In this document: positions 33,134 through 52,545 of the stretch, one piece after another
How the letters are laid out: each line of letters opens with the position of its first letter
How positions within the stretch are numbered: the stretch's first letter is position 1
Origin: Schmidtea polychroa
Lineage: Eukaryota
NCBI GenBank assembly: GCA_044892525.1
Contig: CM097885.1
Span: forward strand, 15,254,001 to 15,318,000
Reading direction: 5' to 3'
Length of the DNA: 64,000 bases
Translations under genes and position numbers: made by a program
Notes under the pieces: model-generated
The model's database searches: none
Seen by the model: only the letters and a program-made list of their open reading frames with translations
Told to the model about the DNA's origin: nothing

Positions 33134-34270
33134 TCAATGATTCAAATACAGCACGTCAAGATAAGGATTGTTTAAATTCCCAAATAAAATCTTCCCACCA
33201 GTTTCATAAGCTTCAGTAATAAAATGCATGCCCTTCTTATTCCCACTAATCTCTGAAATAATTTCCCCTTCATTATTTATTTTCAAAATCCGACTTTTAC
33301 CCTTTGATAACATGATAAAAATTCTTTTCGGTATAAGCCAAGCTAAGTAGTAATTTATTAAGGGATAACTGTGAATTATGGAAAACAAGTATGTGTCCTC
33401 TACTGGCAGGGCAACATAAAAATTATCCTGCTCATCTCGTTTAATGTTATCAACCTTTCCCTGAAGACCATCAACAAAAACTTCGACATTGTCGTGAGAT
33501 TTAAGGAGATTAATTTTTAACAATCTTCCTCTTATTAACTCGGCAACTACGAGACTTGTTTCGTTTTGAGTGAGGGATAAACCATTCGGAAATGATAAAT
33601 TCGCTGCGATTAGGTATAATTTTCGGTTTATTAAATCATAGCTGTAAACTCTGCCAGAAGAGTCACCTTCTAAAACGGAATATAACACATCGTCCAAAGT
33701 CCATTTCATTGAGGATACCGTGAAATATATAATTCCGTTCTTTGAAACATCTAACGAATTGAAAAACATTAGTGATCGGGTGAGCATATCTTTATTGGGA
33801 CTTACAAGCACTTGCTTAGTACCCTTATCCAAATGAATAGCATATATACCATGGTATGCATCTGCGACGATTATTTTCCCTTTATCAACATATTTCAACC
33901 CCAAAATTCTTCCACATACTTTCCCGAGTTCGTTTGATTGACAGTTCCGATTATCTTCCCCTATTCTCATAATGGATTTCCATGTAGCTAAATCCTTAGT
34001 TATACTCAATCTATATAGCATGCCATCAGCCGCTCCAGTATAGATATCCCCTGTGACCGGATCATGAGTAAATGATTCAGGCCCCACAAAATCGTTCATA
34101 AATAATCTGCTAGAATTATCCCATGAAATTCTTTTGAAAGTACTTGCAAATTTCAATTGAGTATTTTCGTTTTTCACCATTTTAGGATCAGTTTCAATTT
34201 TCGGGGCGATCCAATAGACGAGAATCGCAAAGCTCACAACTAAAGCAGCACATTTTATTAGCATGACCAT
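33134..34270 (-). CDS. APMAP / strictosidine-synthase-like six-bladed propeller with N-terminal membrane anchor, copy 1 (intronless)
   Basis: GPESF, IYTGAADG, CGRILGL, VADAYHG, FFNSLDV...IYFT, GRVYSYD, LSFPNGL, VDNIKRD. First ATG at 34270. Confidence 0.92.
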   Translation of the reverse strand: MVMLIKCAALVVSFAILVYWIAPKIETDPKMVKNENTQLKFASTFKRISWDNSSRLFMNDFVGPESFTHDPVTGDIYTGAADGMLYRLSITKDLATWKSIMRIGEDNRNCQSNELGKVCGRILGLKYVDKGKIIVADAYHGIYAIHLDKGTKQVLVSPNKDMLTRSLMFFNSLDVSKNGIIYFTVSSMKWTLDDVLYSVLEGDSSGRVYSYDLINRKLYLIAANLSFPNGLSLTQNETSLVVAELIRGRLLKINLLKSHDNVEVFVDGLQGKVDNIKRDEQDNFYVALPVEDTYLFSIIHSYPLINYYLAWLIPKRIFIMLSKGKSRILKINNEGEIISEISGNKKGMHFITEAYETGGKILFGNLNNPYLDVLYLNH

Positions 34271-34313
34271 AAATCTCTGAAACACTTATACACAAGTATT
34301 TAATTATAAAAAT

Positions 34314-34425
34314 GAGATTAATTTTAAGTTAATTTTTGATTGGTTGAAACATTTCAATAAAGTGAAAACTGAGATTAATTTTAAGTTAATTTGATTGGTT
34401 GAAACGTTTCAATAAAGTGGAAAAA
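34314..34425. promoter_or_regulatory. Duplicated ~57-bp promoter block, each copy containing GATTGG (CCAAT box on the minus strand)
   Basis: GAGATTAATTTTAAGTTAATTT..GATTGGTTGAAAC.TTTCAATAAAGTG occurs twice, 45-155 bp upstream of copy 1. Confidence 0.5.
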
Positions 34426-34566
34426 TCGATAATTTAAAAATTTTAAATAATCATCATAAATATTTATTAAAATTCATTAATAAGCAAAAATAAATATAAT
34501 TTTATTATTATTATAAGAACTTTTTTCAATTTTCACTACTGATTTCTTTTCAATTGATTTCTTTTC

Positions 34567-34735
<169 letters not shown>

Positions 34736-34902
34736 TAGACGTCATATAATCCTACAATGAAGCTCAATAGATAATCATATATGGGATCATATATGGGAGA
34801 TATAATATTGGGAATTATATTAGAATTGATGGTATTAATAATCCTTTCCCAGATAAATTTCAGCATTTACTTGATCTGAAATTTGATTCTATTTTGTTGA
34901 TT

Positions 34903-35187
<285 letters not shown>

Positions 35188-35338
35188 ATACATTAGACGA
35201 AAACACTTCATATTTATATATTTTGTCTGTGCGAACTTCCAACTAAGATCAAAGTTTAAGTAAAGTATTGATATAAATTAAAACGCAAGTACAAATATTT
35301 GTTATTAATCAAAATAACTAATTAATCTAGTCTAATTA

Positions 35339-36460
35339 ATGTCACTGATTAACTCATTATCGATTGTCGGCATTTCTGTTTTTTTGTTTTGGTTAACACC
35401 GAAGGTGATCATTGATCCAAAAGTGAAAGTAATCAATGAAGAAGTTTCAGTGCCTTCAAATGAAGTGAAAAGGTTATCATGGAACGAGGTGAACAGAAAA
35501 TTCTCCAACAAACTAACTGGACCGGAAGCATTCACCCATGATATTGTTACAGGTGACATTTATACCGGTACTGCAGATGGAATGGTTTGGAAACTGAACT
35601 TAGAGTTAACAACAATTGAACCGATCATTCGAGTCGGTGATGATCATCCAAATTGCGGATCAGAACATGTTGCTCATATCTGTGGCCGAGTGTTGGGATT
35701 AAAACTCTTCAACAGTGAAACTCTGATTGTTGCCGACTCTTATCGGGGAATTATTGCTATTAATTTGAAAACGAAAACCAAAGAAATGTTGGTAGAAAAA
35801 GATAAAAGTGAAATGACAAAGTCGTTGCAGCTTTTCAATTCCTTAGACATATCGACAAATGGGATTATTTATTTCACAATTTCCTCTATGAAATGGTCAT
35901 TGAAGGACTTTATTTATTCAATTATTGAAGGCGATAATACCGGAGGAATTTACAGTTTCAATATGTTTACGAAAGAATTGAAAGTTTTAGCATCAAATTT
36001 ACACCTTCCAAATGGATTGGCTTTAAGTTCAGATGAAAAGAGTCTCATTGTAAGTGAGGTGAACAAAAGACGATTAATAAAGCTAGATCTTTCAAAACAA
36101 TCAAATAATGTAGAGGTAATTATGGACAATTTAATTGGTATTCCTGCTAATATAAGACGCGATTTGGAGAACAATTATTACCTAGCAATGCCCATGACAG
36201 GCATTACATATACCATTTCCTTTCTTTACAAATATCCCATTATCAACTATCCCCTCGCATATCTGGTTCCAAAATGGGTCATCTTAAAGTTTTTTGGAAG
36301 CGACAGTAAAATTTATAAATTTGATGAGCATGGGAGAATAATTGCAATTATCGATGGAACTCATCCAGGTACGGACTTTGTCACGGAGGCATATGATACT
36401 GGCAATAGGATATTATTAGGAAGTTTGGACCACCCTTATTTGGATGTAATTAGAGTTTAG
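35339..36460 (+). CDS. APMAP / strictosidine-synthase-like protein, copy 2 (373 aa, intronless)
   Basis: GPEAF, IYTGTADG, CGRVLGL, VADSYRG, LFNSLDI...IYFT, LHLPNGL; colinear with copy 1. Confidence 0.92.
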   Translation: MSLINSLSIVGISVFLFWLTPKVIIDPKVKVINEEVSVPSNEVKRLSWNEVNRKFSNKLTGPEAFTHDIVTGDIYTGTADGMVWKLNLELTTIEPIIRVGDDHPNCGSEHVAHICGRVLGLKLFNSETLIVADSYRGIIAINLKTKTKEMLVEKDKSEMTKSLQLFNSLDISTNGIIYFTISSMKWSLKDFIYSIIEGDNTGGIYSFNMFTKELKVLASNLHLPNGLALSSDEKSLIVSEVNKRRLIKLDLSKQSNNVEVIMDNLIGIPANIRRDLENNYYLAMPMTGITYTISFLYKYPIINYPLAYLVPKWVILKFFGSDSKIYKFDEHGRIIAIIDGTHPGTDFVTEAYDTGNRILLGSLDHPYLDVIRV

Positions 36461-37655
36461 TCAGACATTCAGTAAACATTTTTTCTATCATTATGAGTTG
36501 TTTAAATGGTTGTGGAAAGAAACTTATGTATGATTTTAATTAAAAAAGAATTAAAAATAATTTTATTATTTTTTATGTTGATTAAATCACATAGAGATCT
36601 TGTATTATCACCAATGCTTAATATCTCTCACTGTCAAACTTTTCTACACAAACTTCTCACACAGACCTAATGACGAAGCCTTCTAATAATGCTGCCTGAT
36701 ACAGTGTACGTGGTTCAGTCTTAATATAAAGGCCGAATAGCTGGAGGAATTACCAATACAATTACCCGTAATGCATACATTTTTCATCTCTTTAACCAAC
36801 ACCAAACGCAACATCAACGACAAATAGGTTTCCTAGGCCAGGTCCTTATTCCCAGCCCTGCATTCGTAAAGATAACCTTAAACAAATAAGAACTAAGGAC
36901 TAACAGTTCCATATGCGGTACTCACTTTTGTATTAAATCTTAATCATATGAAATATGGCAAACTTCATTCATGACAGGTGCCGGACGGTATGTCAAAATA
37001 TAAATGTTTACAAAATAAATTTGAATCAACACCTGAATAACCTTGGTAAAAACCTTTAAAATAAAACGAACAAAAAATCACAAAGTATATCTTAAAGAGG
37101 AAGAAAAATACATTGACATGTGTTTGATACGGGCAAGGAAGTGGAAGCATTTAAAGTTAGCAAATAATACAGAATAGCACCAAACATAAATGCAAAAAAT
37201 AAATAATACGTAATGATACAGAAGATATACAAAAATAATAATAAAAATAGGATCCTTGTATAAATTATTTAAATATTAATTGAAAATAATTTATAGATAG
37301 ATGTGTGGACTCCAGGCCAGTGGGAATCCTCGACTCTCACAACTTGAGATATTTTCATTTCAACTATTCATTTCAACATGGTGTTTTATTATTTTAGAGT
37401 GGTTGAGTTGACAATTATTTTCATTAACCATTTTTGTTAAATTTCTTTGACGAAACTCATGATTTTTCTTGAATTTAGACTATACATTTTACTTAATCAG
37501 ACAAAGTTTTTATAACTACTAATTGTAATTTAGTTTAAAATATTTTTGAATTCTAAAGCAATTAAAAAAATTAATTTATTTAAAAAACATTTGATAAAAA
37601 ACACTGAAGAATTAAGATTTTTAGTTGGTAAATTTAAGTAGGTAGAAGTGAGCCC

Positions 37656-38010
37656 ACGATGACTCATCGTTGAGGTCAACTTAAGGATATAGAAAATTTT
37701 GAGGTCAACTTAAGGTCAAATTTTAAGGTCAACCCCCATACCCCCTACCCCTAATTTTAAGGTCATAGAAAATTTTAAGGTCAACCCCCTACCCCTAATT
37801 TTAAGGTCATAGAAAATTTTAAGGTCAACCCCCTACCCCTAATTTGAAGGTCATAGAAAATTTTAAGGTCAACCCCCTACCCCCTACCCCTAATTTTAAG
37901 GTCATAGGAAATTTTAAGGTCAACCCCCTACCCTACCCCTAATTTTAAGGTCATAGAAAATTTTAAGGTCAACCTCCCTACCCTTAATTTTAAGGTCAAA
38001 TTGAGGTCAA
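37656..38010 (+). promoter_or_regulatory. Subterminal array: AP-1-centred palindrome plus 16 AGGTCA motifs and C-runs
   Basis: ACGATGACTCATCGT at 37656-37670; repeats of TTTTAAGGTCAACCCCCTACCCCTAA and TTTTAAGGTCATAGAAAA; mirrored at about 51370-51788. Confidence 0.6.
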
Positions 38011-38090
38011 AAATTAAAAATTTTCTAAGTCCATTTAACGAATTACTTTATAGAAAATTTTCAAAGTCAAAACACGTTTTAATACTACGT

Positions 38091-38170
38091 TTGCAAATGT
38101 CTTTGTTACTCATGCATTTGCATTGCAAATGTCTTTGTTACTCATGCATTTGTATTGCATATGTCTTTGT
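38091..38170 (+). repeat. 32-bp tandem repeat (2.5 copies) containing octamer ATTTGCAT and TTACTCA
   Basis: TTGCAAATGTCTTTGTTACTCATGCATTTGCA units begin at 38091, 38123 and 38155. Confidence 0.85.
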
Positions 38171-38299
38171 ATTACACACCTTAAGGATAGAAAAATATTT
38201 CTAAGCGAGATCTAAAGTGAATGTGTGTAATGGGCAATAAATAAGGGTAAAATCAAAATTTTTTAAGAAAATACATGTAATTTGATTAAAATTTATGAA

Positions 38300-38303
<4 letters not shown>

Positions 38304-38338
<35 letters not shown>

Positions 38339-39276
38339 TTATTTTAGGCAGATAATCTATGTGTGTCTGTATATGAAAACATTGATAAGGAGCAATAAAT
38401 AAGGGACGGTTTTACTCACACACACAAGTTTTATATCATTCGAAAGTCTACTATATATATTACATAATTGAATCGAATCAAAATAAGGGCAAAATCAAAA
38501 ATGGTAAAATAAAATGGTCATTATCAGACATTTTAAAAAATATATTTTATTTATTTATTTTAAATAAAAATATGTAATTATGATCATAGTTAATTTAAGC
38601 ACATATTTATTTCACTTTTCACAAAATAATTTTAAAATACCACAACGTAATATATTTTCTATCTTAATTTTAATTGGCTGGAGAATAAAGTATGCTTTTC
38701 ATTATAAACATTTTCATTATTACGAAATAACTTTACAGATAATGATCACAGACATCGATTACGAAAATGGTATTTTCATTATTTTTTAATTCATTTTAAT
38801 ATATATATATATATATTTGTTTTATTTTAGGCAGATAATCTATGTGTGTCTGTATATGAAAACATTGATAAGGAGCAATAAATAAGGGACGGTTTTACTC
38901 ACACACACAAGTTTTATATCATTCGAAAGTCTACTATATATATTACATAATTGAATCGAATCAAAATAAGGGCAAAATCAAAAATGGTAAAATAAAATGG
39001 TCATTATCAGACATTTTAAAAAATATATTTTATTTATTTATTTTAAATAAAAATATGTAATTATGATCATAGTTAATTTAAGCACATATTTATTTCACTT
39101 TTCACAAAATAATTTTAAAATACCACAACGTAATATATTTTCTATCTTAATTTTAATTGGCTGGAGAATAAAGTATGCTTTTCATTATAAACATTTTCAT
39201 TATTACGAAATAACTTTACAGATAATGATCACAGACATCGATTACGAAAATGGTATTTTCATTATTTTTTAATTCA

Positions 39277-39318
<42 letters not shown>

Positions 39319-39773
39319 TTATTTTAGGCAGATAATCTGTGTGTGTCTGTATATGAAAACATTGATAAGGAGCAATAAATAAGGGACGGTTTTACTCACA
39401 CACACAAGTTTTATATCATTCGAAAGTCTACTATATATATTACATAATTGAATCGAATCAAAATAAGGGCAAAATCAAAAATGGTAAAATAAAATGGTCA
39501 TTATCAGACATTTTAAGAAATATATTTTATTTATTTATTTTAAATAAAAATATGTAATTATGATCATAGTTAATTTAAGCACATATTTATTTCACTTTTC
39601 ACAAAATAATTTTAAAATACCACAACGTAATATATTTTCTATCTTAATTTTAATTGGCTGGAGAATAAAGTATGCTTTTCATTATAAACATTTTCATTAT
39701 TACGAAATAACTTTACAGATAATGATCACAGACATCGATTACGAAAATGGTATTTTCATTATTTTTTAATTCA

Positions 39774-39807
<34 letters not shown>
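38304..39807. repeat. Three tandem ~490-bp units bounded by (AT)n tracts (single copy in the right arm, about 50542-51080)
   Basis: An identical 69-codon ORF marks offsets of 483 and 497 bp; AT tracts lie at about 38304, 38799, 39282 and 39779. Confidence 0.95.
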
Positions 39808-39811
<4 letters not shown>

Positions 39812-40019
39812 CTAGATAGCTATTGTGTCATAATTGAAGAACATTTTGTTACTTCGATACCTGCAAAAGAATATGGACGAAAAAGTTAAATAATAATAAT
39901 TCATTGTTTATTCTTAATTGTCTTTTCCAGGAAATTTTAATGAGGATTCAGTTGCTGATTCTGTTGCTTATGCTGCTGGAACTATTGAATATTTCGCAAA
40001 GAAGATAAAATGTAAGTAA
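39722..40019 (+). CDS. Candidate spliced mini-gene in the left arm (exons 39722-39749, 39816-39884, 39931-40011/40019; ~60 aa)
   Basis: GT-AG introns of 66 and 46 nt give the uninterrupted frame MITDIDYENDSYCVIIEEHFVTSIPAKEYGRKRNFNEDSVADSVAYAAGTIEYFAKKIK. Confidence 0.45.
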
Positions 40020-40067
40020 ATTACAAAATTTAACTTAGATTTCTAGTTCTATAGTTTTTTGTTTATG

Positions 40068-40730
40068 AAAATTTAAATTAGTAAAAAATGATATTTAATC
40101 AGATGTTAATATTTAGATGAATTCATTTAAATAAATTTCTTAAAATTAATGAAAATTAGTAATATATAAATTATTAATTAAAATTAGTACAATGTTCAAA
40201 TTTTAACTGAAATTATTTTTTAGACAATATTAATATAGTTATTGTTAGTTTATTTTAACTATATTACGACTATCAACTTTAATTTTATTATAAAAGTATA
40301 AATAAAACTTCATTTCAAAATCGAATTTTTATTTGCAATATTATTTTTACATTAATCAACTAAGATGAAACTAATTTAAAATTTGATTGCATCACGAAAC
40401 TTCTAGTATTTCATGTAAGTGAAATTAAAAGTATATATGGATTGTTAAATAATTAACATATTAAAATAATATCTTTGTTTAAGAAAATTTAAAGTAGTAA
40501 AAAAAATGATATTTAATCAGATGTTTATTGGTAAATATTTAGATGAATTCATTTAAATAAATTTCTTAAAATTATTGAGAATTAGTAATATATTAAATAA
40601 AATTAGTACAAAGTTCAAATTTTAAATGAAATTTATTAGACAATATTTTATTTTTAACTATATTAAGACGATCAACATGAATTTTATTATAAAAAATGAT
40701 GAAAGTATAATGAAACTTCATTTCAAAAAT
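40068..40730. repeat. Diverged ~250-bp direct repeat pair inside the arm (about 40068-40325 and 40483-40730)
   Basis: Shared blocks AAAAAATGATATTTAATCAGATGTT, GATGAATTCATTTAAATAAATTTCTTAAAATTA and AAACTTCATTTCAAAA. Confidence 0.8.
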
Positions 40731-41229
40731 ATGAATTGTGATAAAAAAAAAATTGAACAATTTTGAAATAACTAAGGGCATTCAATAATATTGTAACTCA
40801 TTAAATAAAGTTTACATAGTAAGCTAAATGCTACCCTTGTCCATTTTTATGGTGTATATGGTGAAAAATAAATTTAGATGCACAATGAAATTTAAAAGTG
40901 TAAATCTATAAAATTTAAAATTTATAAAAAAAAAATTGAAAATTCGAAAAAATTAAAAATTGATGCATGTATGTATGTATGGCAAATAAAAAGACTAACA
41001 CAAATACAATAAAATCAAATCATCGAGGACATCCACTTAATGATTTATTTTATGAATGATTATAATTGATTTTATCTTATTTTGAATTTGAATAAATAAT
41101 TGAATATATCGGGGACAAATTAACTTAATTATAAATTTTAATATATTAATAATTTTGGAATAATAATAATTAAGATAAATGATAATCAATAGAGATAAAT
41201 GAATTACTGATAATATAAATGATAATATA

Positions 41230-42171
41230 AAATTTCAAAATAACTAAGATTTCCGAAATATCCAGATTATCCGGAAGAAATTATATTTCAACTCCGAAAG
41301 CCTTAATAAATAAAAATGCATTAATAAATGTGATCAATGGAGATGATATGTGTTTCATATACAGTGTGCTAGCCAATTTGAAAAAAGATATCATTATGGC
41401 TGATAATACAAATGTTGAAAATTATACACAGTTCTTGTCCGAATTGGTATATAATGAATTAGATATGCCAATGAAATTGAAGGACATTTCAAAATTCGAA
41501 AAGCATAACGAAGGAATTGCTATCAATGTCCTCAGTTACAATCCTAAAAATATGATTGATATCGATAATGTGGATATTATAATGAAACATCCACATATTG
41601 ATATAATACATCGGACTAAAGTAACTGGGGTTACACCGATGTATTTACTATTGTTAGAATCGAATGGCCAATACCACTATACTGCAGTTCCAGATTTACA
41701 GCGATTAATGAATTGTAGAAAAACTCATAGTTACCCAGTCCGTATTCAATGCAGATGGTGCGAGACATGTTTAAATGGTTTTAGAAGAGAAGATGCTTTT
41801 GACAGGCATGTAGCTTTATGCAAGAAAAACCAATTGGGCACAACATTATACACATTGCCAGAAATCTCAGATTTAAAATTTAATGACTGGTCAAAAATGG
41901 TAACTCCGCCTTTTGTTATATATGCTGACTTCGAAGCTGTTTTACCACTTGATGAAAGACAACACCAAAAACATTTACCTATAGCAGCGGGGCTGTTACT
42001 GGTAAATAATGTTACTGGGTCAACGAAATATAGTCATTTTATTGGACCAGATTGTGTATACAGATTTCTGATGGATGTAGAAAATATTGTCAACAATATA
42101 GTGAAGGTTTATTATAAGACAAGAGGGCATTGTCAAATGAAATTTTTGACAAATCAGGAAAAGCTGCAATT
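41230..42171 (+). pseudogene. Inverted internal duplicate of pPolB (copy of 46970-47911)
   Basis: Reverse complement of the PolB segment with at least 6 substitutions; no native start and no polymerase motifs. Confidence 0.95.
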
Positions 42172-42332
42172 ATATAAATATAAATATCGATAATCCCATG
42201 TATTTACCAATTGCAAGCTCATGTATAAACAATATAGAAATAAATATTCGTGATGATAGTGGAAACCTTATAAACTTTCCAAAAGATTCGAAAACTCATT
42301 TGACATTACATTTTCGTAAAGTAGATGGCTAA
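42171..42332 (+). pseudogene. C-terminal remnant of the minor capsid protein (penton, PX)
   Basis: INIDNPMYLPIASSCINNIEINIRDDSGNLINFPKDSKTHLTLHFRKVDG* matches the Polinton penton C-terminal pattern (P.Y.P...IEI.IRDD.G..I.F....TLHFR). It begins right at the PolB-copy junction. Confidence 0.8.
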
Positions 42333-42687
42333 TTCTGATATTATTAGTATGTATAGTGATAGCCAATCTGGCGGTGAATTACCATACTTCGTTGGTAAAC
42401 AGTACGGATCAGGATGGCTAAAAACAATTGGGAGATTTGCACTTCCTATTCTTAAACGTATTGGTAGTTTTGGTATGAAAACTGCAAAAGATGTGATTAT
42501 GAATGAACAGAAAATATTACCATCCCTAAAATCAAATGCTTTATCTGAATTAGGGAAGGTTCTACCAAGTGTTGCTGGTATGTTTCAAAAAGAGCCAGCC
42601 CCAGATTATGTTCCAAAACGTAAAAGACATGGAATATCGCGTATAAACAAACGAATGAAAGTACATGGAACTATATTTGCAAAATGA
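42325..42687 (+). CDS. Small basic virion core/membrane-active protein candidate (120 aa)
   Basis: QSGGELPYFVGKQYGSGWLKTIGRFALPILKRIG amphipathic segment and a basic tail. It overlaps the penton stop and the MCP start (ATGA). Confidence 0.75.
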   Translation: MANSDIISMYSDSQSGGELPYFVGKQYGSGWLKTIGRFALPILKRIGSFGMKTAKDVIMNEQKILPSLKSNALSELGKVLPSVAGMFQKEPAPDYVPKRKRHGISRINKRMKVHGTIFAK

Positions 42688-43904
42688 TTTGTGGTAAATC
42701 CGAATTATGTATATTTGATAGACCATCGCCTCAAGCGGTAATAGAATTTGGGGCTTTTGAGGAAGTTTTTCCTATGAATTCAATTACCGATAGTAGAAAT
42801 GATATCGAGTTTTATATTAATGGTTCGCAAACTGAATATTTAGATTTGAACGATACATTATTGACTGTTCAGATCAAGGTTGTAGATAAAGATAGAAAGG
42901 TTTTGGATGCCAATGCAGATGTAATACCGAACAATTTCATGTTTCATACTCTTTTTAAAGATGCAGTGTTGGGATTTAATAATATCAAGATTGAGGGTGG
43001 AAATAATACATTCATTCACAAGGCCTTGATAGAAACTATTTTAAATTACAATTCCGATACTAAAAACACCTGTCTTACTCCTATGGGTTATGCAGCATCA
43101 GATGTTGAAAGAAAAAAGTGGGTTAAAGGCTCAAAAATATTCACCATGTGCTCATCATTACAACTCGACTTTATGGATCAGCCGAAATATTTACTTCCTG
43201 GAGTTAATGTACATATTAGACTGAAAAGATCAGATTCTGCATTATCTCTTACTAGTGCAGGTGCACCAATATGTCAATTAGTTGATGCAAAATTATTGGT
43301 GAGAAGAGTTCGAGTGGACCCGTCAGTATTAGTTGGTCATCAATTGGGTCTTAATTCAAAACATGCAATTTATCCATTAAAGACAAAGGAAATTGTACAA
43401 TTCGCTATTGCTAAAGGTGCTTCATCATTCTATAAAGAACAAATATTTGGTGACAGAAGAATGCCTAATTTTATCCTGATAACATTTCAAAGTGAAACTC
43501 AATATAACGGATCATATACTACATCCAGCTCAATTTTCAAAAACTTTGGTGTTACATCACTGACTTTGTCTAAAAATACTGATTATAGAGAAACATATAC
43601 TCAAGATTTTGAAAGTGATAATTACTGTGCTACATATATGCAGAGTATTGTTAGAAATTTGGGTTATTTAGATAAAAACTTAAATTGTGGAATAACTCTT
43701 GAAGAATTTAAAACCAAATACCCATTTTTTACATTTGTTTTAGCCCCCGATTTTGATTTAAATCAGAGTCAATTACCACAAAACGGGAATTTACGACTGG
43801 ATATAAAGTTTGCAAGAGCCATTACTGAACCGGTACATGTCATTATATATGGAGTATTTGAAAATGAAGTTCAAATTACTGAAAATAGAACTGTGCTGGT
43901 ATAA
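42684..43904 (+). CDS. Major capsid protein (double jelly-roll, PY/hexon-like), 406 aa, intact
   Basis: CGKSELCIF..PSPQ, IEFYING..EYLDLNDT, PNNFMFHTLF, DQPKYLLPGV.V.IRL, GNLRLDIKFA; typical Polinton MCP. Confidence 0.92.
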   Translation: MICGKSELCIFDRPSPQAVIEFGAFEEVFPMNSITDSRNDIEFYINGSQTEYLDLNDTLLTVQIKVVDKDRKVLDANADVIPNNFMFHTLFKDAVLGFNNIKIEGGNNTFIHKALIETILNYNSDTKNTCLTPMGYAASDVERKKWVKGSKIFTMCSSLQLDFMDQPKYLLPGVNVHIRLKRSDSALSLTSAGAPICQLVDAKLLVRRVRVDPSVLVGHQLGLNSKHAIYPLKTKEIVQFAIAKGASSFYKEQIFGDRRMPNFILITFQSETQYNGSYTTSSSIFKNFGVTSLTLSKNTDYRETYTQDFESDNYCATYMQSIVRNLGYLDKNLNCGITLEEFKTKYPFFTFVLAPDFDLNQSQLPQNGNLRLDIKFARAITEPVHVIIYGVFENEVQITENRTVLV

Positions 43905-43968
43905 ATGTGTGAATAAATCTAGAAACATTTATCATGGAGTAAGTTTTCTTTAAACTAATAAAATTATT

Positions 43969-44312
43969 ATGTTAGTTCTATTCAGATAAATCGAATTGGT
44001 ACTCAAATATTAGGTAAAGAGTTTGTTGGAGTGTACCCACTAGACAAAATCCCCTATTTAGATGTGAATCAAGCCATAATTGTCAACACATATTCGTCTA
44101 CTCTGGGAGGAGAACATTGGATTGCAGTCTACGTGAAGCCGAATAAAATATATGTTTTCGATCCAATGGGATTTTACTATCCAGCCCTATTGATCAAAAA
44201 GCTATCAATTATTGGTCAAGTTGATTACAATAAAACTCGGTTTCAACATCCATTAACAAATACTTGTGGACAACATTGTCTAGCTTGGCTAATGTATAAA
44301 CATCTTTGTTAA
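43969..44312 (+). CDS. Adenain-like cysteine maturation protease; likely 1-nt frameshift just after the ATG
   Basis: FVGVYPLD, IVNT, GEHW, FDPMG, FQ....TCGQHC (H/D/Q/C). The frame is open from 43962, and the ATG at 43969 is out of frame by one. Confidence 0.85.
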
Positions 44313-44388
44313 ATAAATGTATTGTAAAAAAAAATGTTGTGTTACTTTATTTAAACAAAGTCGTTACTGAATTATGTATAATAAATGT

Positions 44389-44389
<1 letters not shown>

Positions 44390-44423
<34 letters not shown>

Positions 44424-44531
44424 AGCCATGAATTTATTAATAATATTAATAATAAAAATAATAATAATAATAAAAATAATAATAATAATAAAAATAATAA
44501 TAATAACAATAATAATAATAATAATAATAAT
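44390..44531. repeat. (AT)n and (AAT)n tracts between the converging protease and PolB genes
   Basis: Directly visible. Confidence 0.9.
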
Positions 44532-44862
44532 CGTTTCTCAACAATAAATGCAATCAATATTTGCAATCCTAAAGAGGACGTATACACATTCACAATAAAA
44601 TATTTAGGACTCAAAAGAGAAACAACGCAATAAAAATAAACATAATTATGAGAACCAATATGCATTAAAAGGACAATTATATTGGTTACAACAAGTACCA
44701 TTACAAAAGTTACAAATGAATCATTATATTGGTGGTTCGATCTCATCTCTTTTCAAAACTGTTCAGAAACTGTGTCAAAACTGGAGAAACTGTGCAGAAA
44801 CTAAAATAAAAATAAAAATATTTTTAAAAATAAAACGGATAAATCATTACCATTAATCATTA

Positions 44863-47800
44863 TCATTCGTCTGCAGATGATTCATCAAGAGGCAAAATAT
44901 TATTTAATTCATTATCTAAAATATTATAATGCACATATGCGAAGCTCTTGTTCTCTTCAACCCAAACCCTTTTATCATCGTTATTTGTAAGGGCTACCTT
45001 CTTAGTTCTAAATGTAAATAATTGATGGTTTCGTGTACCAAACCGGGATTGATTCACCTTCGGTATACACATTCCAAGATAACAATCCACATACGATTGA
45101 TGTGTGATTTCTGTTCCCTTTAATGATACACCTTTGGCTTTATTTATAGTATCATTATCACAAGTTGGCAAACTATAGCATTTGGGTCTGAGGAATACCC
45201 ATTCTTGATATGATTTGCCTTTGTTTTCGTCCTTGAATTTCCCAATTACAGAATCCAAATTTCGTGAATATAATGGATCTGTAGGATCGTAGTTGCTGGT
45301 GTCTAACAATCCGTCAGCAATCATTGCAGGAAGTAATTGTGATCGCAATTTGACATATTTACATTCGAGGAAGAATGAGTCTGTATCCCCGGCTATGATA
45401 TTTATTTGGCAATTGAACTGTGCTCGATATTTTGACAGTTCAATATACTGTAGTTCATACATTCTAAGTTTAGATAAGTCTAGCACTGTTTGACCAATGT
45501 AGCTAGGCCTATCTAAACAAACTACATCTTTATTCAGCAAAAGGGCAATTAAATCATTAGCAATTTTAATTGAACGTCTAAATGTTGGCTTTGAAGTGTA
45601 TTTAACCAATTTTTCGGCATTGTTGCACAATCTCAGATTTATTCTTTACTTCAGATTCTCCACTGTCTTGCCGTAAACACTATTATTTAAAAGTTTATAA
45701 AAATCTCTATCTAAACTATTTTGTGATTCAGCTCGAAGTTGGGTATTTGTGTTGATATAATCCTTCAATATCGGCTTTTGTGTAAATTTTATTGCACGAT
45801 GTATATTGGTGACTTCCACTCCGAGGCCCATATATAATTTCAAAAGTCTCCAATGAATAACATAATTAGTTTTCGCATAATGGGTTAATAATAATTTTGG
45901 TACAGTGGAATCTGGTGGACACATTTTCTCTGCTGCGACTGGAAAATCGTCTAATAGATCGTGGATATTAGACGGGATGACTAAATCAACTTCCAATGTG
46001 TATCCATAAGTTAAATTTTCTAGTTTGGAACTAATACAGTCAACTAAAATGGATAATAATTCCACTTCATTATATATCCACTCAAAATCGCTACATGGCA
46101 AGTATTGGCTTAACGCCCACCCGTACAGGTTGTTTATATCGATATAAAGCAACTCTGTTTCATCATCTGTTACAGCGAAGTGTTTATTTACAAATGTGAG
46201 ACCACCACGGATCCCACCCTCGAAGAAATTATACATCTCCATGTCCATCAGTAATTCCACTGGTTCTTCTAAGGTCATGAGCGCAGATGCCCAAGACATT
46301 CCAGGGATTCCAAAAAAATTGAGTGGCTCGAGTCCATTATGTGCTTTTGATCTTGCTCGAAATTGTTGGAAGAAATCGGCAAGTAAAAACACATCAAGTT
46401 TTAAATAAATTTGTAAATAATCCATTAGAGTTTCGCAACTTGTTTCTTGCCATATTTGTTGCGCTATTATATATTCTTCATTTGTACCGCCTTCCCAAAT
46501 AGCGGGCAATTCATATGTTGTTTCTAATATTTCCTCACTTGTGGCAAAATCAAAAGGAAAAATTCCTTTGTTGTTTATGATGGTTGCAGTATTGAATACT
46601 GAACGGGTCAAAGGCAAGTCGTTCAATGTTTTTACTGCATTATGTAATGAAGTATTGACAAACTGATATGAGTCAATAATTCTTATTGTAAATTTACCCA
46701 GCCATGCTATCAATGTTAAAAATTTCTCAGTGCTTGTTGGTATGCAGCTGAGACTCCAATGAAGAAATTGATTGAGCCCATATTTCAAAATGTGATGTAG
46801 ATTATACCCTTTCAGATTATGAAATACGATGGGTAATGTTTCTCTGATTTTCCTTTGTTGATTGCATACATTGCATGAGGCTCCGAGATATTTGCCAGTG
46901 AAATGATCATGGTCTTTCACTTTCTCTGGCATTGGCTTTTTGCACAAGTAACAATTGACTGCTGTGTGGAATTGCAGCTTTTCCTGATTTGTCAAAAATT
47001 TCATTTGACAATGCCCTCTTGTCTTATAATAAACCTTCACTATATTGTTGACAATATTTTCTACATCCATCAGAAATCTGTATACACAATCTGGTCCAAT
47101 AAAATGACTATATTTCGTTGACCCAGTAAAATTATTTACCAGTAACAGCCCCGCTGCTATAGGTAAATGTTTTTGGTGTTGTCTTTCATCAAGTGGTAAA
47201 ACAGCTTCGAAGTCAGCATATATAACAAAAGGCGGAGTTACCATTTTTGACCAGTCATTAAATTTTAAATCTGAGATTTCTGGCAACGTGTATAATGTTG
47301 TGCCCAATTGGTTTTTCTTGCATAAAGCTACATGCCTGTCAAAAGCATCTTCTCTTCTAAAACCATTTAAACATGTCTCGCACCATCTGCATTGAATACG
47401 GACTGGGCAACTATGAGTTTTTCTACAATTCATTAATCGCTGTAAATCTGGAACTGCAGTATAGTGGTATTGGCCATTCGATTCTAACAATAGTAAATAC
47501 ATCGGTGTAACCCCAGTTACTTTAGTCCGATGTATTATATCAATATGTGGATGTTTCATTATAATATCCACATTATCGATATCAATCATATTTTTAGTAT
47601 TGTAACTGAGGACATTGATAGCAATTCCTTCGTTATGCTTTTCGAATTTTGAAATGTCCTTCAATTTCATTGGCATATCTAATTCATTATATACCAATTC
47701 GGACAAGAACTGTGTATAATTTTCAACATTTGTATTATCAGCCATAATGATATCTTTTTTCAAATTGGCTAGCACACTGTATATGAAACACATATCATCT

Positions 47801-48819
47801 CCATTGATCACATTTTTTAATGCATTTTTATTTATTAAGGCTTTCGGAGTTGGAATATAATTTCTTCCGGATAATCTGGATATTTCGGAAATCTTAGTTA
47901 TTTTGAAATTTATTTCAATTATTCTTATCAGACGCCATCCGCTTCCAAGTTCCGATCTGATATGAATTTTCTCGTGCAACTTTTCAATACCATCTGCAAT
48001 AAACTTTTCAAAATTGTTCTCAGTTACCATCACCGCTTTGTTAGAAAATCTTGATGATTGGAATTCTCCATCTTTTTCGAAATCACATTCTATCCCGAAT
48101 TGAACTTTCACAGTTTTCATCTCCTTGATTGTAGATAATAGTTTCTCAGAGAAAGTTTCGGGTAGATTTATCTCATTCATGTTTTTGAACGACATTTTAA
48201 TTGTTTTATGACAATTTTTCAAGTCAGATTCAATCTCGACTTCTTCAGTAGGTTCCCATTCATTAACAATCTGGAAATCATCCCATATATTGTCCTCTTC
48301 TACTATTTGTTCCGTTTCCACTGGTTCTTCCACCGGTTCTTCCACTGGTTCTTCCACTGGTTCTTCCACTGGTTCTTCCACTGGTTCTTCCACCGGTTCT
48401 TCCACTGGTTCTTCCACTGGTTCTTCCACTGGTTCTTCCACTGGTTCTTCCACTGGTTCTTCCACTGGTTCTTCCACTGGTTCTTCCACTGATTCTTCAA
48501 TATCTTCTATCATATTAGTTGATCCACAACCAATTTGATAATTTAAAAAATTCCCTGATTCACCTATAACGATAACATCATCATCAGATTCATCTATAAT
48601 GATGATGTTATCATTAAGTTTTTGTTTTTTAGTAGGTACGTCTATTATACCGTTATTAAATAATTTTTTAAAAAATTCTTTTTTATCCGATTTAAAATAT
48701 GTAAGATGATCTTTGTGATCATTATAAAATATTTCATAGGGCTTAGTGAAAAGAGCTTCGCAAAATGGGCATAAATAATATTTTTTATTATAATAATTTC
48801 TTAAATAGTATTTTTCCAT
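44863..48819 (-). pseudogene. Protein-primed family B DNA polymerase (1318 codons) with one in-frame TAA at 45646-45648
   Basis: YADFE (Exo I), DHDHFTG...CNVCN, FHNLKGY (Exo II), YLKLDV (Exo III), IRGG, YIDINNLYG (A), KLLNNSVYGK (B), GDTDS (C), GKFKDE, RPKCY, KAKGV, DDKR. The two ORFs are in frame: ENLK*RINLRLC. Confidence 0.95.
48318..48490 (-). repeat. Coding 12-bp minisatellite giving (EEPV)x14 in the PolB N-terminus
   Basis: CCACTGGTTCTT units every 12 bp from 48318 to 48474. Confidence 0.97.
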
Positions 48820-49125
48820 TGCATCATGGCATTGTTTCCCATCATGTTCTTTTGCGGTGCAACATTGTTTGTATAAATTGCCTTAAATAATTACAATTGC
48901 TTTATTATGTTTCTTTTTAAACAAATTTAACAATAAACATCTCTCAAAAGTTTATATTTTTTATGGGCGGAAAGGTTGATTTTGATCTTGGTTTATATAG
49001 CGAAATGCAATATAAAAAAGAATTATTTAATTTTATAATATATTTATTTTATTATTTTATGTTTTATTTATTTATTTTTAAACATTAAATGGTTTAATTA
49101 TATGGTTTATTTATAATATTGAATT

Positions 49126-51024
49126 TCATTTATATTATCGGTAATTCATTTATCTCTATTGATTATCATTTATCTTAATTATTATTATTCCAAAATTATT
49201 AATATATTAAAATTTATAATTAAGTTAATTTGTCCCCGATATATTCAATTATTTATTCAAATTCAAAATAAGATAAAATCAATTATAATCATTCATAAAA
49301 TAAATCATTAAGTGGATGTCCTCGATGATTTGATTTTATTGTATTTGTGTTAGTCTTTTTATTTGCCATACGTACATACATGCATCAATTTTTAATTTTT
49401 TCGAATTTTCAATTTTTTTTTTATAAATTTTAAATTTTATAGATTTACACTTTTAAATTTCATTGTGCATCTAAATTTATTTTTCACCTCTATACACCAT
49501 AAAAATGGACAAGGGTAGCATTTAGCTTACTATGTAAACTTTATTTAATGAGTTACAATATTATTGAATGCCCTTAGTTATTTCAAAATTGTTCAATTTT
49601 TTTTTTATCACAATTCATATTTTTGAAATGAAGTTTCATTATACTTTCATCATTTTTTATAATAAAATTCATGTTGATCGTCTTAATATAGTTAAAAATA
49701 AAATATTGTCTAATAAATTTCATTTAAAATTTGAACTTTGTACTAATTTTATTTAATATATTACTAATTCTCAATAATTTTAAGAAATTTATTTAAATGA
49801 ATTCATCTAAATATTTACCAATAAACATCTGATTAAATATCATTTTTTTTACTACTTTAAATTTTCTTAAACAAAGATATTATTTTAATATGTTAATTAT
49901 TTAACAATCCATATATACTTTTAATTTCACTTACATGAAATACTAGAAGTTTCGTGATGCAATCAAATTTTAAATTAGTTTCATCTTAGTTGATTAATGT
50001 AAAAATAATATTGCAAATAAAAATTCGATTTTGAAATGAAGTTTTATTTATACTTTTATAATAAAATTAAAGTTGATAGTCGTAATATAGTTAAAATAAA
50101 CTAACAATAACTATATTAATATTGTCTAAAAAATAATTTCAGTTAAAATTTGAACATTGTACTAATTTTAATTAATAATTTATATATTACTAATTTTCAT
50201 TAATTTTAAGAAATTTATTTAAATGAATTCATCTAAATATTAACATCTGATTAAATATCATTTTTTACTAATTTAAATTTTCATAAACAAAAAACTATAG
50301 AACTAGAAATCTAAGTTAAATTTTGTAATTTACTTACATTTTATCTTCTTTGCGAAATATTCAATAGTTCCAGCAGCATAAGCAACAGAATCAGCAACTG
50401 AATCCTCATTAAAATTTCCTGGAAAAGACAATTAAGAATAAACAATGAATTATTATTATTTAACTTTTTCGTCCATATTCTTTTGCAGGTATCGAAGTAA
50501 CAAAATGTTCTTCAATTATGACACAAGCGCTATCTAGAAAATATATATATATATATATATATATTAAAATGAATTAAAAAATAATGAAAATACCATTTTC
50601 GTAATCGATGTCTGTGATCATTATCTGTAAAGTTATTTCGTAATAATGAAAATGTTTATAATGAAAAGCATACTTTATTCTCCAGCCAATTAAAATTAAG
50701 ATAGAAAATATATTACGTTGTGGTATTTTAAAATTATTTTGTGAAAAGTGAAATAAATATGTGCTTAAATTAACTATGATCATAATTACATATTTTTATT
50801 TAAAATAAATAAATAAAATATATTTTTTTAAATGTCTGATAATGACCATTTTATTTTACCATTTTTGATTTTGCCCTTATTTTGATTCGATTCAATTATG
50901 TAATATATATAGTAGACTTTCGAATGATATAAAACTTGTGTGTGTGAGTAAAACCGTCCCTTATTTATTGCTCCTTATCAATGTTTTCATATACAGACAC
51001 ACATAGATTATCTGCCTAAAATAA

Positions 51025-51083
<59 letters not shown>

Positions 51084-51807
51084 TTCATAAATTTTAATCA
51101 AATTACATGTATTTTCTTAAAAAATTTTGATTTTACCCTTATTTATTGCCCATTACACACATTCACTTTAGATCTCGCTTAGAAATATTTTTCTATCCTT
51201 AAGGTGTGTAATACAAAGACATATGCAATACAAATGCATGAGTAACAAAGACATTTGCAATGCAAATGCATGAGTAACAAAGACATTTGCAAACGTAGTA
51301 TTAAAACGTGTTTTGACTTTGAAAATTTTCTATAAAGTAATTCGTTAAATGGACTTAGAAAATTTTTAATTTTTGACCTCAATTTGACCTTAAAATTAGG
51401 GGTAGGGGGGTAGGGGAGGTTGACCTTAAAATTTTCTATGACCTTAAAATTAGGGGTAGGGGTAGGGGGTTGACCTTAAAATTTCCTATGACCTTAAAAT
51501 TTTCTATGACCTTCAAATTAGGGGTAGGGGGTTGACCTTAAAATTTTCTATGACCTTAAAATTTCCTATGACCTTAAAATTTGACCTTAAATTTGGAAAA
51601 ATTAGACTTTGGCCTCAAACGTTGACCTTAAAATAGCCTAAAATCGACTTTGACCTCAGAATTTGACCTTAAAATGGCTTAAATTGACCTTAAATTGTCC
51701 TGAAAATGACATTGACCTTAAAATTTGACCTTAAGTTGACCTCAAAATTTTCTATTGCCTTAAGTTGACCTCAACGATGAGTCATCGTGGGCTCACTTCT
51801 ACCTACT
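49126..51807 (-). repeat. Right inverted arm (long TIR) of the Polinton, about 2.7 kb
   Basis: Reverse complement of the left arm, with one ~490-bp unit and an extra TGACCT-rich block at about 51590-51720. Confidence 0.95.
50330..50621 (-). CDS. Mirror copy of the candidate spliced mini-gene in the right arm
   Basis: Same splice sites and frame; reads DSAC instead of DSYC. Confidence 0.45.
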
Positions 51808-52294
51808 AATTTATTATTGTGTACATGATTTAATGTAAATAGAAAGAGTTGCATAGTGGATGAAGATACTTAATGAATATAGGTTGGTACTTGGTACCTA
51901 GTAGTTGGTTGAAATGTCTAGAGGATTGTGTGGTCTGTACAGTTCTTTCCAAGGATATAAGAAGAAAGAAATAGTACACATTTTACTATTAGCACTAAGA
52001 AGACCGTACTATAAGCAAATTTGTGATGAAGAATAAACTTTTACATTTATCTTTAATTGTTATTATTTTTATGTGTTTGTTAGTACCGTTTGTAAGTACT
52101 TGGTTGAATTATTATTATTGTTATCATTAATATTCACAAAAATTTATTTCATAAAACGTTGCTTTAAAAATATCCTTTGAAAGTTCACTTGAAAAAGGCA
52201 GTGCTGAGAATTCGTGAATATCAAAAACATCTATTAAATCTTTCTTCGTGATTAGTTTTGAATTGAGAAAATACAAAGTAATGATTTATTCTCT

Positions 52295-52545
52295 TTAGAT
52301 TAAAACTTTACAATTATAAAATTCTTTACTCAAATAAGTTTGTAAATTAGCTGGTTTACCGTCTTTAAACATTGTTTTTATTGCAACAGTCATTTCATTA
52401 GCAGATAGTTCAAGCATAGTTCGAACAAATCTACTAGCAACATGAATACATGTCAAAATATATTTGTAACCCTTGTTAATTTTAGAAAATGAAATCATTT
52501 CCATTAAATCCATTTTCCACAAATCATTGATACCATGTTTTATAT
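52295..52545 (-). pseudogene. Degraded Polinton-type retroviral-like integrase fragment outside the element
   Basis: GINDLWKMDLMEM...NKGYKYILTCIHVASRF...PANLQTYLSKEFYN matches W..DL.DM...N.GYKYIL..ID.FS...P..LQTD.G.EFYN; the second catalytic Asp is Tyr. Confidence 0.85.

What the first reader, a model, noticed from the sequence alone, without database searches (positions are those of the whole stretch)
37631..51813. Young, precisely bounded endogenous Polinton/adintovirus with intact capsid gene and multi-kilobase inverted arms
Seen: AG...CT termini, AATTTA TSD, an intact 406-aa MCP, overlapping penton-core-MCP genes, and a protease converging on PolB. The arms are 2.7-3.6 kb and nearly identical. 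Known: described Polinton TIRs are usually hundreds of bp to roughly 1 kb. Inference: a recent insertion from a possibly virion-competent family that may still have active copies.
Basis: partly seen in the sequence, partly recalled or inferred. Interest (0 to 1): 0.72.

Follow-up and report, generated by a model that had tools for sequence, protein, structure and literature searches.

The report
Defective fold-back Polinton with spliced genes
This is a recently inserted but broken virus-like jumping element whose unusually long matching ends arose because one end was overwritten by a mirror copy of the other, and whose polymerase and protease genes appear to carry ordinary host-type introns, which such elements are usually said to lack.

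Summary
The element is real: 14,171 bp, AG..CT ends, AATTTA target duplication, and an open 406-aa capsid gene that folds as a double jelly-roll. The long arms are not native terminal repeats. They run 4.5 and 4.8 kb and contain polymerase gene: three predicted phase-1 leader exons, an intron and 939 bp of the main exon. The left end is an inverted copy of the right end that replaced the penton's N-terminal part and whatever lay upstream; no integrase or ATPase is left. PolB has an in-frame stop. The copy is defective, and a native repeat free of polymerase exons can be at most about 1.19 kb. The geometry fits one copy-back template switch during strand-displacement replication, then integration by a helper; repair after insertion is a close rival. 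Also found: a predicted 37-nt intron after the protease start codon, shared by 3 of 4 related loci. Earlier notes of this scan report spliced polymerase leaders and gene-less fold-back Polintons on other DNA of this genome; they prompted the leader test. No RNA, read or genome-wide check was possible.

The parts
37631..37636 (.). left target-site duplication AATTTA
   Evidence: chance 0.002
37637..51807 (.). whole element, 14,171 bp, AG...CT termini
37637..42171 (+). left arm: inverted copy of the element's right end (4,535 bp)
37637..38010 (+). left tip and subterminal array of AGGTCA-ended units (16 AGGTCA); lacks a ~160-bp block present on the right
38303..39808 (+). three tandem copies of a 497-bp unit bounded by (AT)n tracts; each ends with a copy of predicted PolB exon 1 (38742, 39225, 39722)
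39816..40011 (+). left-arm copies of predicted PolB leader exons 2 (39816-39884) and 3 (39931-40011)
41207..41231 (+). junction 1: skips 1,210 bp of the right end (end of PolB intron 3 and first ~1 kb of the main exon); short local tandem duplication and a few bases of microhomology
41231..42171 (+). inverted second copy of PolB main-exon sequence (6 substitutions in 939 bp, 5 non-synonymous); the 281-aa ORF here is this fragment
42172..42332 (+). junction 2 and penton (minor capsid) C-terminal remnant, about 54 codons
   Evidence: matches residues 293-347 of 349 (L004) and 342-391 of 392 (L005); Atlas lead to V18-19 family
42325..42687 (+). 120-aa core-type protein in the PW position
   Evidence: 48% and 45% identity to the same-position ORF of L004 and L005; the name PW rests on gene order in PMC8097293
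42684..43904 (+). major capsid protein, 406 aa, open, double jelly-roll
43934..44312 (+). adenain-type maturation protease, predicted 113 aa, with a 37-nt phase-2 GT-AG intron at 43939-43975
44313..44862 (.). spacer with (AT)n and (TAA)n tracts; no match to genes that follow the protease in L002 or L004
44863..48881 (-). main exon of protein-primed PolB (N-terminal Cys/His motifs, 12-bp acidic repeat, EndoVII-like insert, PF03175 core); in-frame stop at 45646-45648 between polymerase motifs B and C
48882..50337 (-). predicted PolB intron 3, 1,456 nt, 17% GC
50338..50621 (-). predicted PolB leader: exons 50621-50594 (28 nt), 50533-50465 (69 nt), 50418-50338 (81 nt), all phase 1
46970..51807 (-). 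right arm = native right end that served as template (4,838 bp)
50622..51807 (-). upper bound (about 1.19 kb) for a native TIR that holds no PolB exon; includes tip, 19 AGGTCA units and most of the single 497-bp unit
   Evidence: inference
51808..51813 (.). right target-site duplication AATTTA

Best explanation
Shown: a Polinton/Maverick copy whose left end has been replaced by an inverted copy of its right end reaching into the PolB gene, which removed most of the penton and every gene upstream of it; it sits between a clean 6-bp TSD and is decaying. Inferred mechanism: a copy-back event during protein-primed strand-displacement replication. Polymerase starting at the right end copied through PolB, protease, MCP and core into the penton, switched at 42172 onto the displaced strand about 4.8 kb behind it (46970) and ran back out to the right end. 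That gives exactly this molecule, with two right ends. The 1.2-kb skip at junction 1 arose by slippage in the same or a later round. With two intact termini the molecule was integrated by an integrase supplied in trans. The 497-bp triplication, array changes and point mutations, perhaps including the PolB stop, came afterwards. The anatomy (arms are a rearrangement product, copy is non-autonomous) I hold at about 0.9; the figure given is for anatomy plus this timing.
For: Arms continue co-linearly from the terminus through three predicted PolB exons and into the main exon. The exon chain was found in 0 of 500 shuffles and 0 of 478 host windows, and its last junction supplies a Cys present at that place in relatives P0288, P0298, P0172, P0324 and P0180. 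A relative (L004) carries ATPase and integrase upstream of the penton on the same strand; neither matches inside the element. PolB copies differ at 6 of 939 sites, 5 non-synonymous, against 80% expected without selection: one template, then neutral decay. Inner arm parts are not less diverged than outer parts (3 of 422 against 14 of 2,817, Fisher p 0.48), as expected if the whole arm dates from about the insertion. Junction 1 has a short templated duplication.
Against: The divergence test is weak (17 substitutions) and repair soon after insertion would look the same. The subterminal arrays differ by a ~160-bp block, which a fresh copy-back would not; the difference can be explained by deletion between identical 13-mers but that is an added step. 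No second locus with the same junction is known, no sibling with native ends was read, and the junctions are not confirmed by reads. Splicing is predicted from DNA only; intron 2 has a weak donor and intron 3 is far longer than the others. L004 is distant (45% MCP, 32% PolB) and has PolB in another position, so the lost gene set is inferred.
Confidence: 0.5

Rival explanations
1. Post-insertion repair: a full-length element integrated, suffered a break in its left part, the left chromosomal end invaded the right TIR, copied about 4 kb inward and rejoined in the penton by microhomology (one-sided synthesis-dependent repair).
For: Keeps the TSD without a helper; explains different subterminal arrays as native left/right differences; templated duplication at junction 1 fits end-joining. 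Such repair making deleted transposon copies is established knowledge (recalled, no call).
Against: Predicts inner arm younger than outer; not seen, though power is low. The left array can be derived from the right by a deletion between direct repeats, not the reverse.
Confidence: 0.33
2. The family has natively very long TIRs (2.7 kb or more) that include the PolB leader exons; the PolB main-exon piece is a separate filler at an internal deletion.
For: Junction 1 could be read as the inner edge of a repeat; TIRs of 'hundred-to-thousands' of bp are reported for protist PLVs (PMC12220804, passages).
Against: Needs a TIR that holds three exons and most of an intron of PolB, and a filler that by chance continues the arm in the same order and orientation. 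Animal Maverick TIRs are 46-1,447 bp (PMC8097293) or 100-1,500 bp (10.1101/2023.08.22.554363).
Confidence: 0.07
3. Recombinant of two different family members, joined so that two right ends flank one capsid block.
For: The family is mosaic: contigs with MCP 96-97% identical carry a protease only 76% identical.
Against: Differences between two functional siblings should be mostly synonymous; here 5 of 6 are non-synonymous.
Confidence: 0.07
4. Assembly or library artefact (fold-back read).
For: No read-level confirmation was obtained.
Against: Arms differ by substitutions, a 497-bp triplication, a 1.2-kb skip and array changes, and both ends meet a matching TSD in different host flanks; a fold-back read gives identical arms and no TSD.
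Confidence: 0.03

Closest known systems
Animal Polintons/Mavericks (Barreat and Katzourakis 2021, PMC8097293; section 7 and passages read)
   Same: 6-bp TSD; AG-type terminal motif; order minor capsid - PW - major capsid - protease on one strand converging on the PolB module; most genomic copies defective (96% in that survey).
   Different: No integrase or ATPase; arms of 4.5-4.8 kb made by inverted duplication of one end; predicted spliceosomal introns in PolB and protease, whereas that paper states that no introns were seen in intact elements.
Adintoviruses (Starrett et al. 2021, PMC8502044; passages read)
   Same: Animal host type, adenain-like protease, hexon/penton-type genes, PolB with a pfam03175 hit (their Alpha class criterion).
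   Different: Integrase and packaging ATPase, part of their description, are absent from this copy; the OTU domain and the Alpha/Beta virion-module class were not tested; named database relatives are only 31-34% identical in PolB while unnamed metagenome relatives reach 60%.
Copy-back/snap-back defective viral genomes and terminal duplications of linear DNA replicons (recalled; reviews seen only as search listings)
   Same: Two copies of one end, loss of the other end, dependence on a helper.
   Different: Here fossilised in a host chromosome with a TSD; timing relative to integration unproven.
Gene-less fold-back Polinton satellites noted earlier in this genome (scan notes e1-7879904, e1-7879908; unchecked)
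   Same: Polinton-type ends, TSD, long inverted arms, non-autonomous.
   Different: This element keeps a 4.8-kb unique core with capsid, protease and PolB; its end sequence found no look-alike among the scan's notes, so it is probably another family.
Introner-bearing Maverick-like proviruses of dinoflagellates (PMC11957031; passages read)
   Same: Spliceosomal introns inside Polinton-like elements.
   Different: Those are mostly recent host transposon insertions; the protease intron here keeps position and phase across relatives with 58% MCP identity while its interior has diverged.

Membership tests
Polinton/Maverick | [quoted passage not shown] | tested here: met
   PF03175 E 9.1e-27; 308 homologues; gene interrupted by an in-frame stop
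Polinton/Maverick | retroviral-like integrase | tested here: not met
   integrases of L004 and L005 give no match inside 37637-51807; present in those relatives
Polinton/Maverick | packaging ATPase | tested here: not met
   L004 ATPase gives no match inside the element
Polinton/Maverick | double jelly-roll major capsid protein | tested here: met
   pLDDT 91.3, pTM 0.88; Foldseek E 1e-16, TM 0.64 to iridovirus MCP; Z 27.0, rmsd 3.6, 363 aligned to a PBCV-1 capsid chain
Polinton/Maverick | minor capsid protein (penton) | tested here: inconclusive
   only ~54 C-terminal codons remain; homologous to the ORF in that position in L004/L005; fold not tested; Atlas lead only
Polinton/Maverick | adenovirus-like maturation protease | tested here: met
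   Peptidase_C5 E 7.5e-7; adenain structures E 0.01
Polinton/Maverick | TIRs with AG-type terminal motif and 6-bp TSD | tested here: met
Polinton/Maverick | native TIR length within the reported 46-1,500 bp | tested here: inconclusive
   upper bound about 1.19 kb inferred from PolB exon 1; no sibling with native ends read
Polinton/Maverick | intronless core genes (as reported for intact vertebrate elements) | tested here: not met
   predicted introns in protease and PolB; DNA evidence only
Adintovirus (Alpha PolB class) | PolB matching pfam03175 | tested here: met
Adintovirus (Alpha PolB class) | N-terminal OTU-like domain in PolB | not tested
   no Pfam hit; no structure search was run on that part
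Adintovirus | virion module class (Mayetiola or Terrapene type) | not tested
   no named reference capsid among the 120 listed MCP hits
Adintovirus | free linear genome or virions | not testable with these tools
   needs nuclease-protected or extrachromosomal DNA data
Copy-back defective genome | both ends derive from one end of the parent | tested here: met
Copy-back defective genome | formed during replication and propagated with a helper | not testable with these tools
   needs other loci sharing junction 2; no genome was held

The most novel reading that the evidence does not exclude
The element is an integrated copy-back defective genome of a Polinton: a fossil of extrachromosomal strand-displacement replication, inserted by a helper's integrase, and a half-way stage between a full element and the gene-less fold-back satellites noted in this genome. 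It belongs to an animal Polinton clade whose core genes (PolB leader, maturation protease) carry inherited spliceosomal introns, so that ORF-based surveys misjudge such elements as broken or misplace their starts.
Probability: 0.4. Interest if true: 0.65.

Novelty: new variant of a known kind. Interest (0 to 1): 0.45.

Why it matters
Polinton replication through a free linear intermediate is a model inferred from gene content. A copy-back product found at several loci would be physical evidence for it and would show how non-autonomous fold-back derivatives start. The shared-junction test needs only a genome search. Separately, conserved introns in protease and polymerase contradict the stated rule that intact Mavericks are intronless and affect how 'intact' copies are counted. 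If the event was repair after insertion, this is an ordinary decaying copy and mainly a warning that automated TIR lengths can be inflated by rearrangement.

Tried and rejected
Whole-genome search: no genome held, so copy number, siblings and empty sites were not examined. Read-level check of junctions and depth: not obtained; junctions remain unverified. Sequencing-run search: 13 of 20 listed rows hold part of the stretch, 6 of them half or more; none was laid, no RNA holder listed; not used as evidence. Viral-contig scans with the MCP profile, PolB, a relative's MCP and the terminal 21-mer found nothing. Sequence search of the PDB with the MCP profile: 0 hits; Pfam and NCBIfam do not recognise the MCP, core or penton tail. 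First idea that the exon-like pieces in the arms were a captured host gene: phmmer of the exon-3 frame gave 5 hits, all repeat proteins (4 FG-GAP, 1 VWC) scored by summing repeats, rejected; the PolB-leader reading replaced it. Leader exon 2 and 3 peptides match no N-terminus among held PolB relatives. First idea that the protease had lost its start codon: rejected by the conserved intron. Rfam on the left arm: 0 matches at E<=1. The 124-aa and 94-aa ORFs in the element are low-complexity frames over microsatellite or repeat DNA. Protease N-termini: of 11 hits, 3 look intron-type, 3 start directly, 5 are uninformative. Literature searches listed no paper describing copy-back Polintons or a protease intron; the library lacks Repbase, most subscription papers, and I opened no supplements, where such annotations may stand.
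Full report
Observation. The element spans 37637-51807 (14,171 bp) between two AATTTA hexamers, with termini AGTAGG...CCTACT; a 6-mer match by chance has probability 0.002 from flank composition. The host is an AT-rich eukaryote (about 27% GC); earlier scan notes call it flatworm-like, which I did not test.

Capsid. With an alignment of 111 sequences the MCP models at pLDDT 91.3, pTM 0.88. Foldseek's best match is an iridovirus capsid chain (E 1e-16, TM 0.64). The wide search gives Z 27.0, rmsd 3.6 over 363 residues to a PBCV-1 chain; the 16 rows at Z 8 or more are all viral capsid or scaffold proteins, and the next row has Z 6.3. The MCP departs from 4 of 89 conserved columns, all four shared with relatives 96-97% identical, so it shows no private damage at those columns.

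The arms are longer than reported and are not plain terminal repeats. Self-comparison shows inverted homology from the tips to 41226/49123, then, after a skip of 1,210 bp on the right, from 41231 to 42171 against PolB coding sequence ending at 46970. The arms are therefore 4,535 and 4,838 bp around a unique core of 4,798 bp. The left arm has three copies of a 497-bp unit that is single on the right and lacks a block of about 160 bp of subterminal units that lies between identical 13-mers. At 42172 the arm joins the last ~54 codons of the penton, which match residues 293-347 of 349 in relative L004 and 342-391 of 392 in L005. L004 has ATPase, integrase, penton, core, MCP and protease in one strand; its ATPase and both relatives' integrases find no match inside the element.

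The 'non-coding' arm is partly PolB gene. I first took exon-like pieces in the arm for captured host DNA; a search with one of them gave only repeat-protein noise. Earlier scan notes on other families in this genome describe three phase-1 leader exons on PolB, so I tested that here. On the right end there are exons of 28, 69 and 81 nt (50621-50594, 50533-50465, 50418-50338; GC 0.32-0.36 against 0.08-0.20 in the introns), all ending in phase 1, with introns of 60, 46 and 1,456 nt; joined, they give 59 open codons in frame with the main exon. The same search pattern succeeded in 0 of 500 shuffles and 0 of 478 host windows; its thresholds were set after seeing this chain, so the control is generous. 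Independent support: relatives are conserved upstream of the first ATG of the main exon, and the last junction supplies a Cys found at that place in P0288, P0298, P0172, P0324 and P0180, where the unspliced frame has none. Several relatives start with their own Met just before that Cys, and the leader peptides match none of the held N-termini, so the leader is lineage-specific. L004 has its own two phase-1 leader exons. Exon 1 starts 1,187 bp from the right terminus, which bounds a native TIR free of PolB exons at about 1.19 kb, inside the published range (46-1,447 bp, PMC8097293 section 7; 100-1,500 bp, 10.1101/2023.08.22.554363 passage).

Decay and age. Outside the repeat arrays the arms differ at 11 of about 2,300 non-coding sites and 6 of 939 PolB sites (Fisher p 0.59). 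Five of the six are non-synonymous, against 80% expected without selection. PolB has an in-frame stop at 45646-45648, after motif B and before motif C; 43 of 43 relatives have a residue there. It departs from 11 of 239 conserved columns, two of them invariant in 43 of 43, against 3-7 in 10 of 12 relatives checked (12 and 33 in the other two). About 0.25% change per arm means recent, but no host rate is at hand to date it.

Protease intron. The protease frame has no ATG before its catalytic His. A 37-nt GT-AG intron after the fifth base of an upstream ATG exon gives a 113-aa frame; the same position and phase are predicted in L001, L002 and L003 (43 nt; MCP 58-59% identical; L001 and L002 are near-identical to each other). 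L004 starts directly; L005 does not reach the gene. Among 11 protease hits, 3 start directly with Met at that place, 3 show intron-like sequence before it, 5 do not inform. P0325 reads through a stretch with the same donor context and the same length but a different interior. PMC8097293 states that no introns were seen in intact vertebrate Mavericks, in agreement with earlier work (passage). Introns in Polinton-like elements are reported as introner insertions in dinoflagellates (PMC11957031, passages) and group I introns in cryptophyte PLVs (PMC12220804, passages). All splicing here is predicted; no RNA data were obtained.

Mechanism. Shown: one end replaced by an inverted copy of the other, two junctions, an intact TSD, neutral decay. 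Inferred: in strand-displacement synthesis from the right end, a single switch at 42172 onto the displaced strand at 46970 yields exactly this molecule, which a helper's integrase can insert because both ends are intact (0.5). One-sided repair after insertion gives the same map (0.33). It predicts a younger inner arm, which is not seen (3 of 422 outer against 14 of 2,817 inner, p 0.48), but the test is weak and the array difference slightly favours it. Native long TIRs (0.07), a recombinant of two siblings (0.07) and artefact (0.03) are less likely. A genome search for other loci sharing junction 2 would decide.

Comparison and novelty. It works like, and derives from, a Polinton/Maverick; this copy fails the integrase and ATPase tests and is a non-autonomous derivative. 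Defective copies are the rule (96% in PMC8097293, passage). Eight searches listed no paper on copy-back Polintons or a protease intron; Repbase, Kapitonov and Jurka 2006 and supplements were not seen. Papers read as passages only: PMC8502044, PMC6431247, PMC11296320, 10.1101/2024.01.15.575659 (71), PMC3014272. The scan's notes already hold spliced PolB leaders and gene-less fold-back Polintons on other DNA of this genome, unchecked except where tested above; none matched this element's MCP or end sequence. Verdict: real, young, defective; the headline of natively multi-kilobase arms does not hold; the rearrangement geometry and the intron-bearing core genes carry the interest (0.45).

Noticed in passing
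window 52224-52534 (-): Degraded, frameshifted fragment of a Maverick-type integrase (49-50% identity to L004/L005 integrases over ~80 aa) about 420 bp outside the right end; apparently a remnant of another, older element.
   Followed up: partly
window 37637-38010 and 51373-51807: 16 and 19 co-oriented AGGTCA hexamers in the ends against 13 in 49.8 kb of flank; resembles nuclear-receptor half-sites (recalled). A 15-bp palindrome around TGACTCA sits 21 bp from each tip.
   Followed up: no
window 42684-44312 against P0001/P0125 and P0325/P0327: Contigs whose MCP is 96-97% identical carry a protease only 76% identical, with the same intron donor context and length but a different intron interior: module exchange within the family (contig pairing inferred from equal contig lengths).
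   Followed up: partly
L004 3815-3435 (-): A distant relative also has a predicted spliced PolB start: two phase-1 exons (94 and 63 nt), the first a C2H2-like finger, opening a 1,151-codon frame.
   Followed up: partly
L004 10207-10698: TBP-like gene (PF00352, E 2.8e-10) right after the protease in that relative, like scan note e1-7879962.
   Followed up: no
L004 and L005: Polinton contigs binned into bacterial MAGs (record titles Lysobacterales and Planktothrix): probable contamination. L005 has two tandem penton-like ORFs.
   Followed up: no
window 33134-36460: Head-to-head pair of apparently intronless strictosidine-synthase-like (APMAP-type) host genes; Pfam Str_synth E 6.4e-23 for 35339-36460. 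The element lies 1.2 kb downstream of it.
   Followed up: no
P0014 and P0161 clusters: Uninterrupted MCP and PolB relatives (about 60% identity) occur on 11-16-kb contigs of matching lengths in many ENA assemblies: near full-length elements of the clade; DNA could not be fetched.
   Followed up: no
window 40060-40830 and its mirror in the right arm: Two diverged 426-bp direct repeats inside predicted PolB intron 3 account for much of its length.
   Followed up: partly
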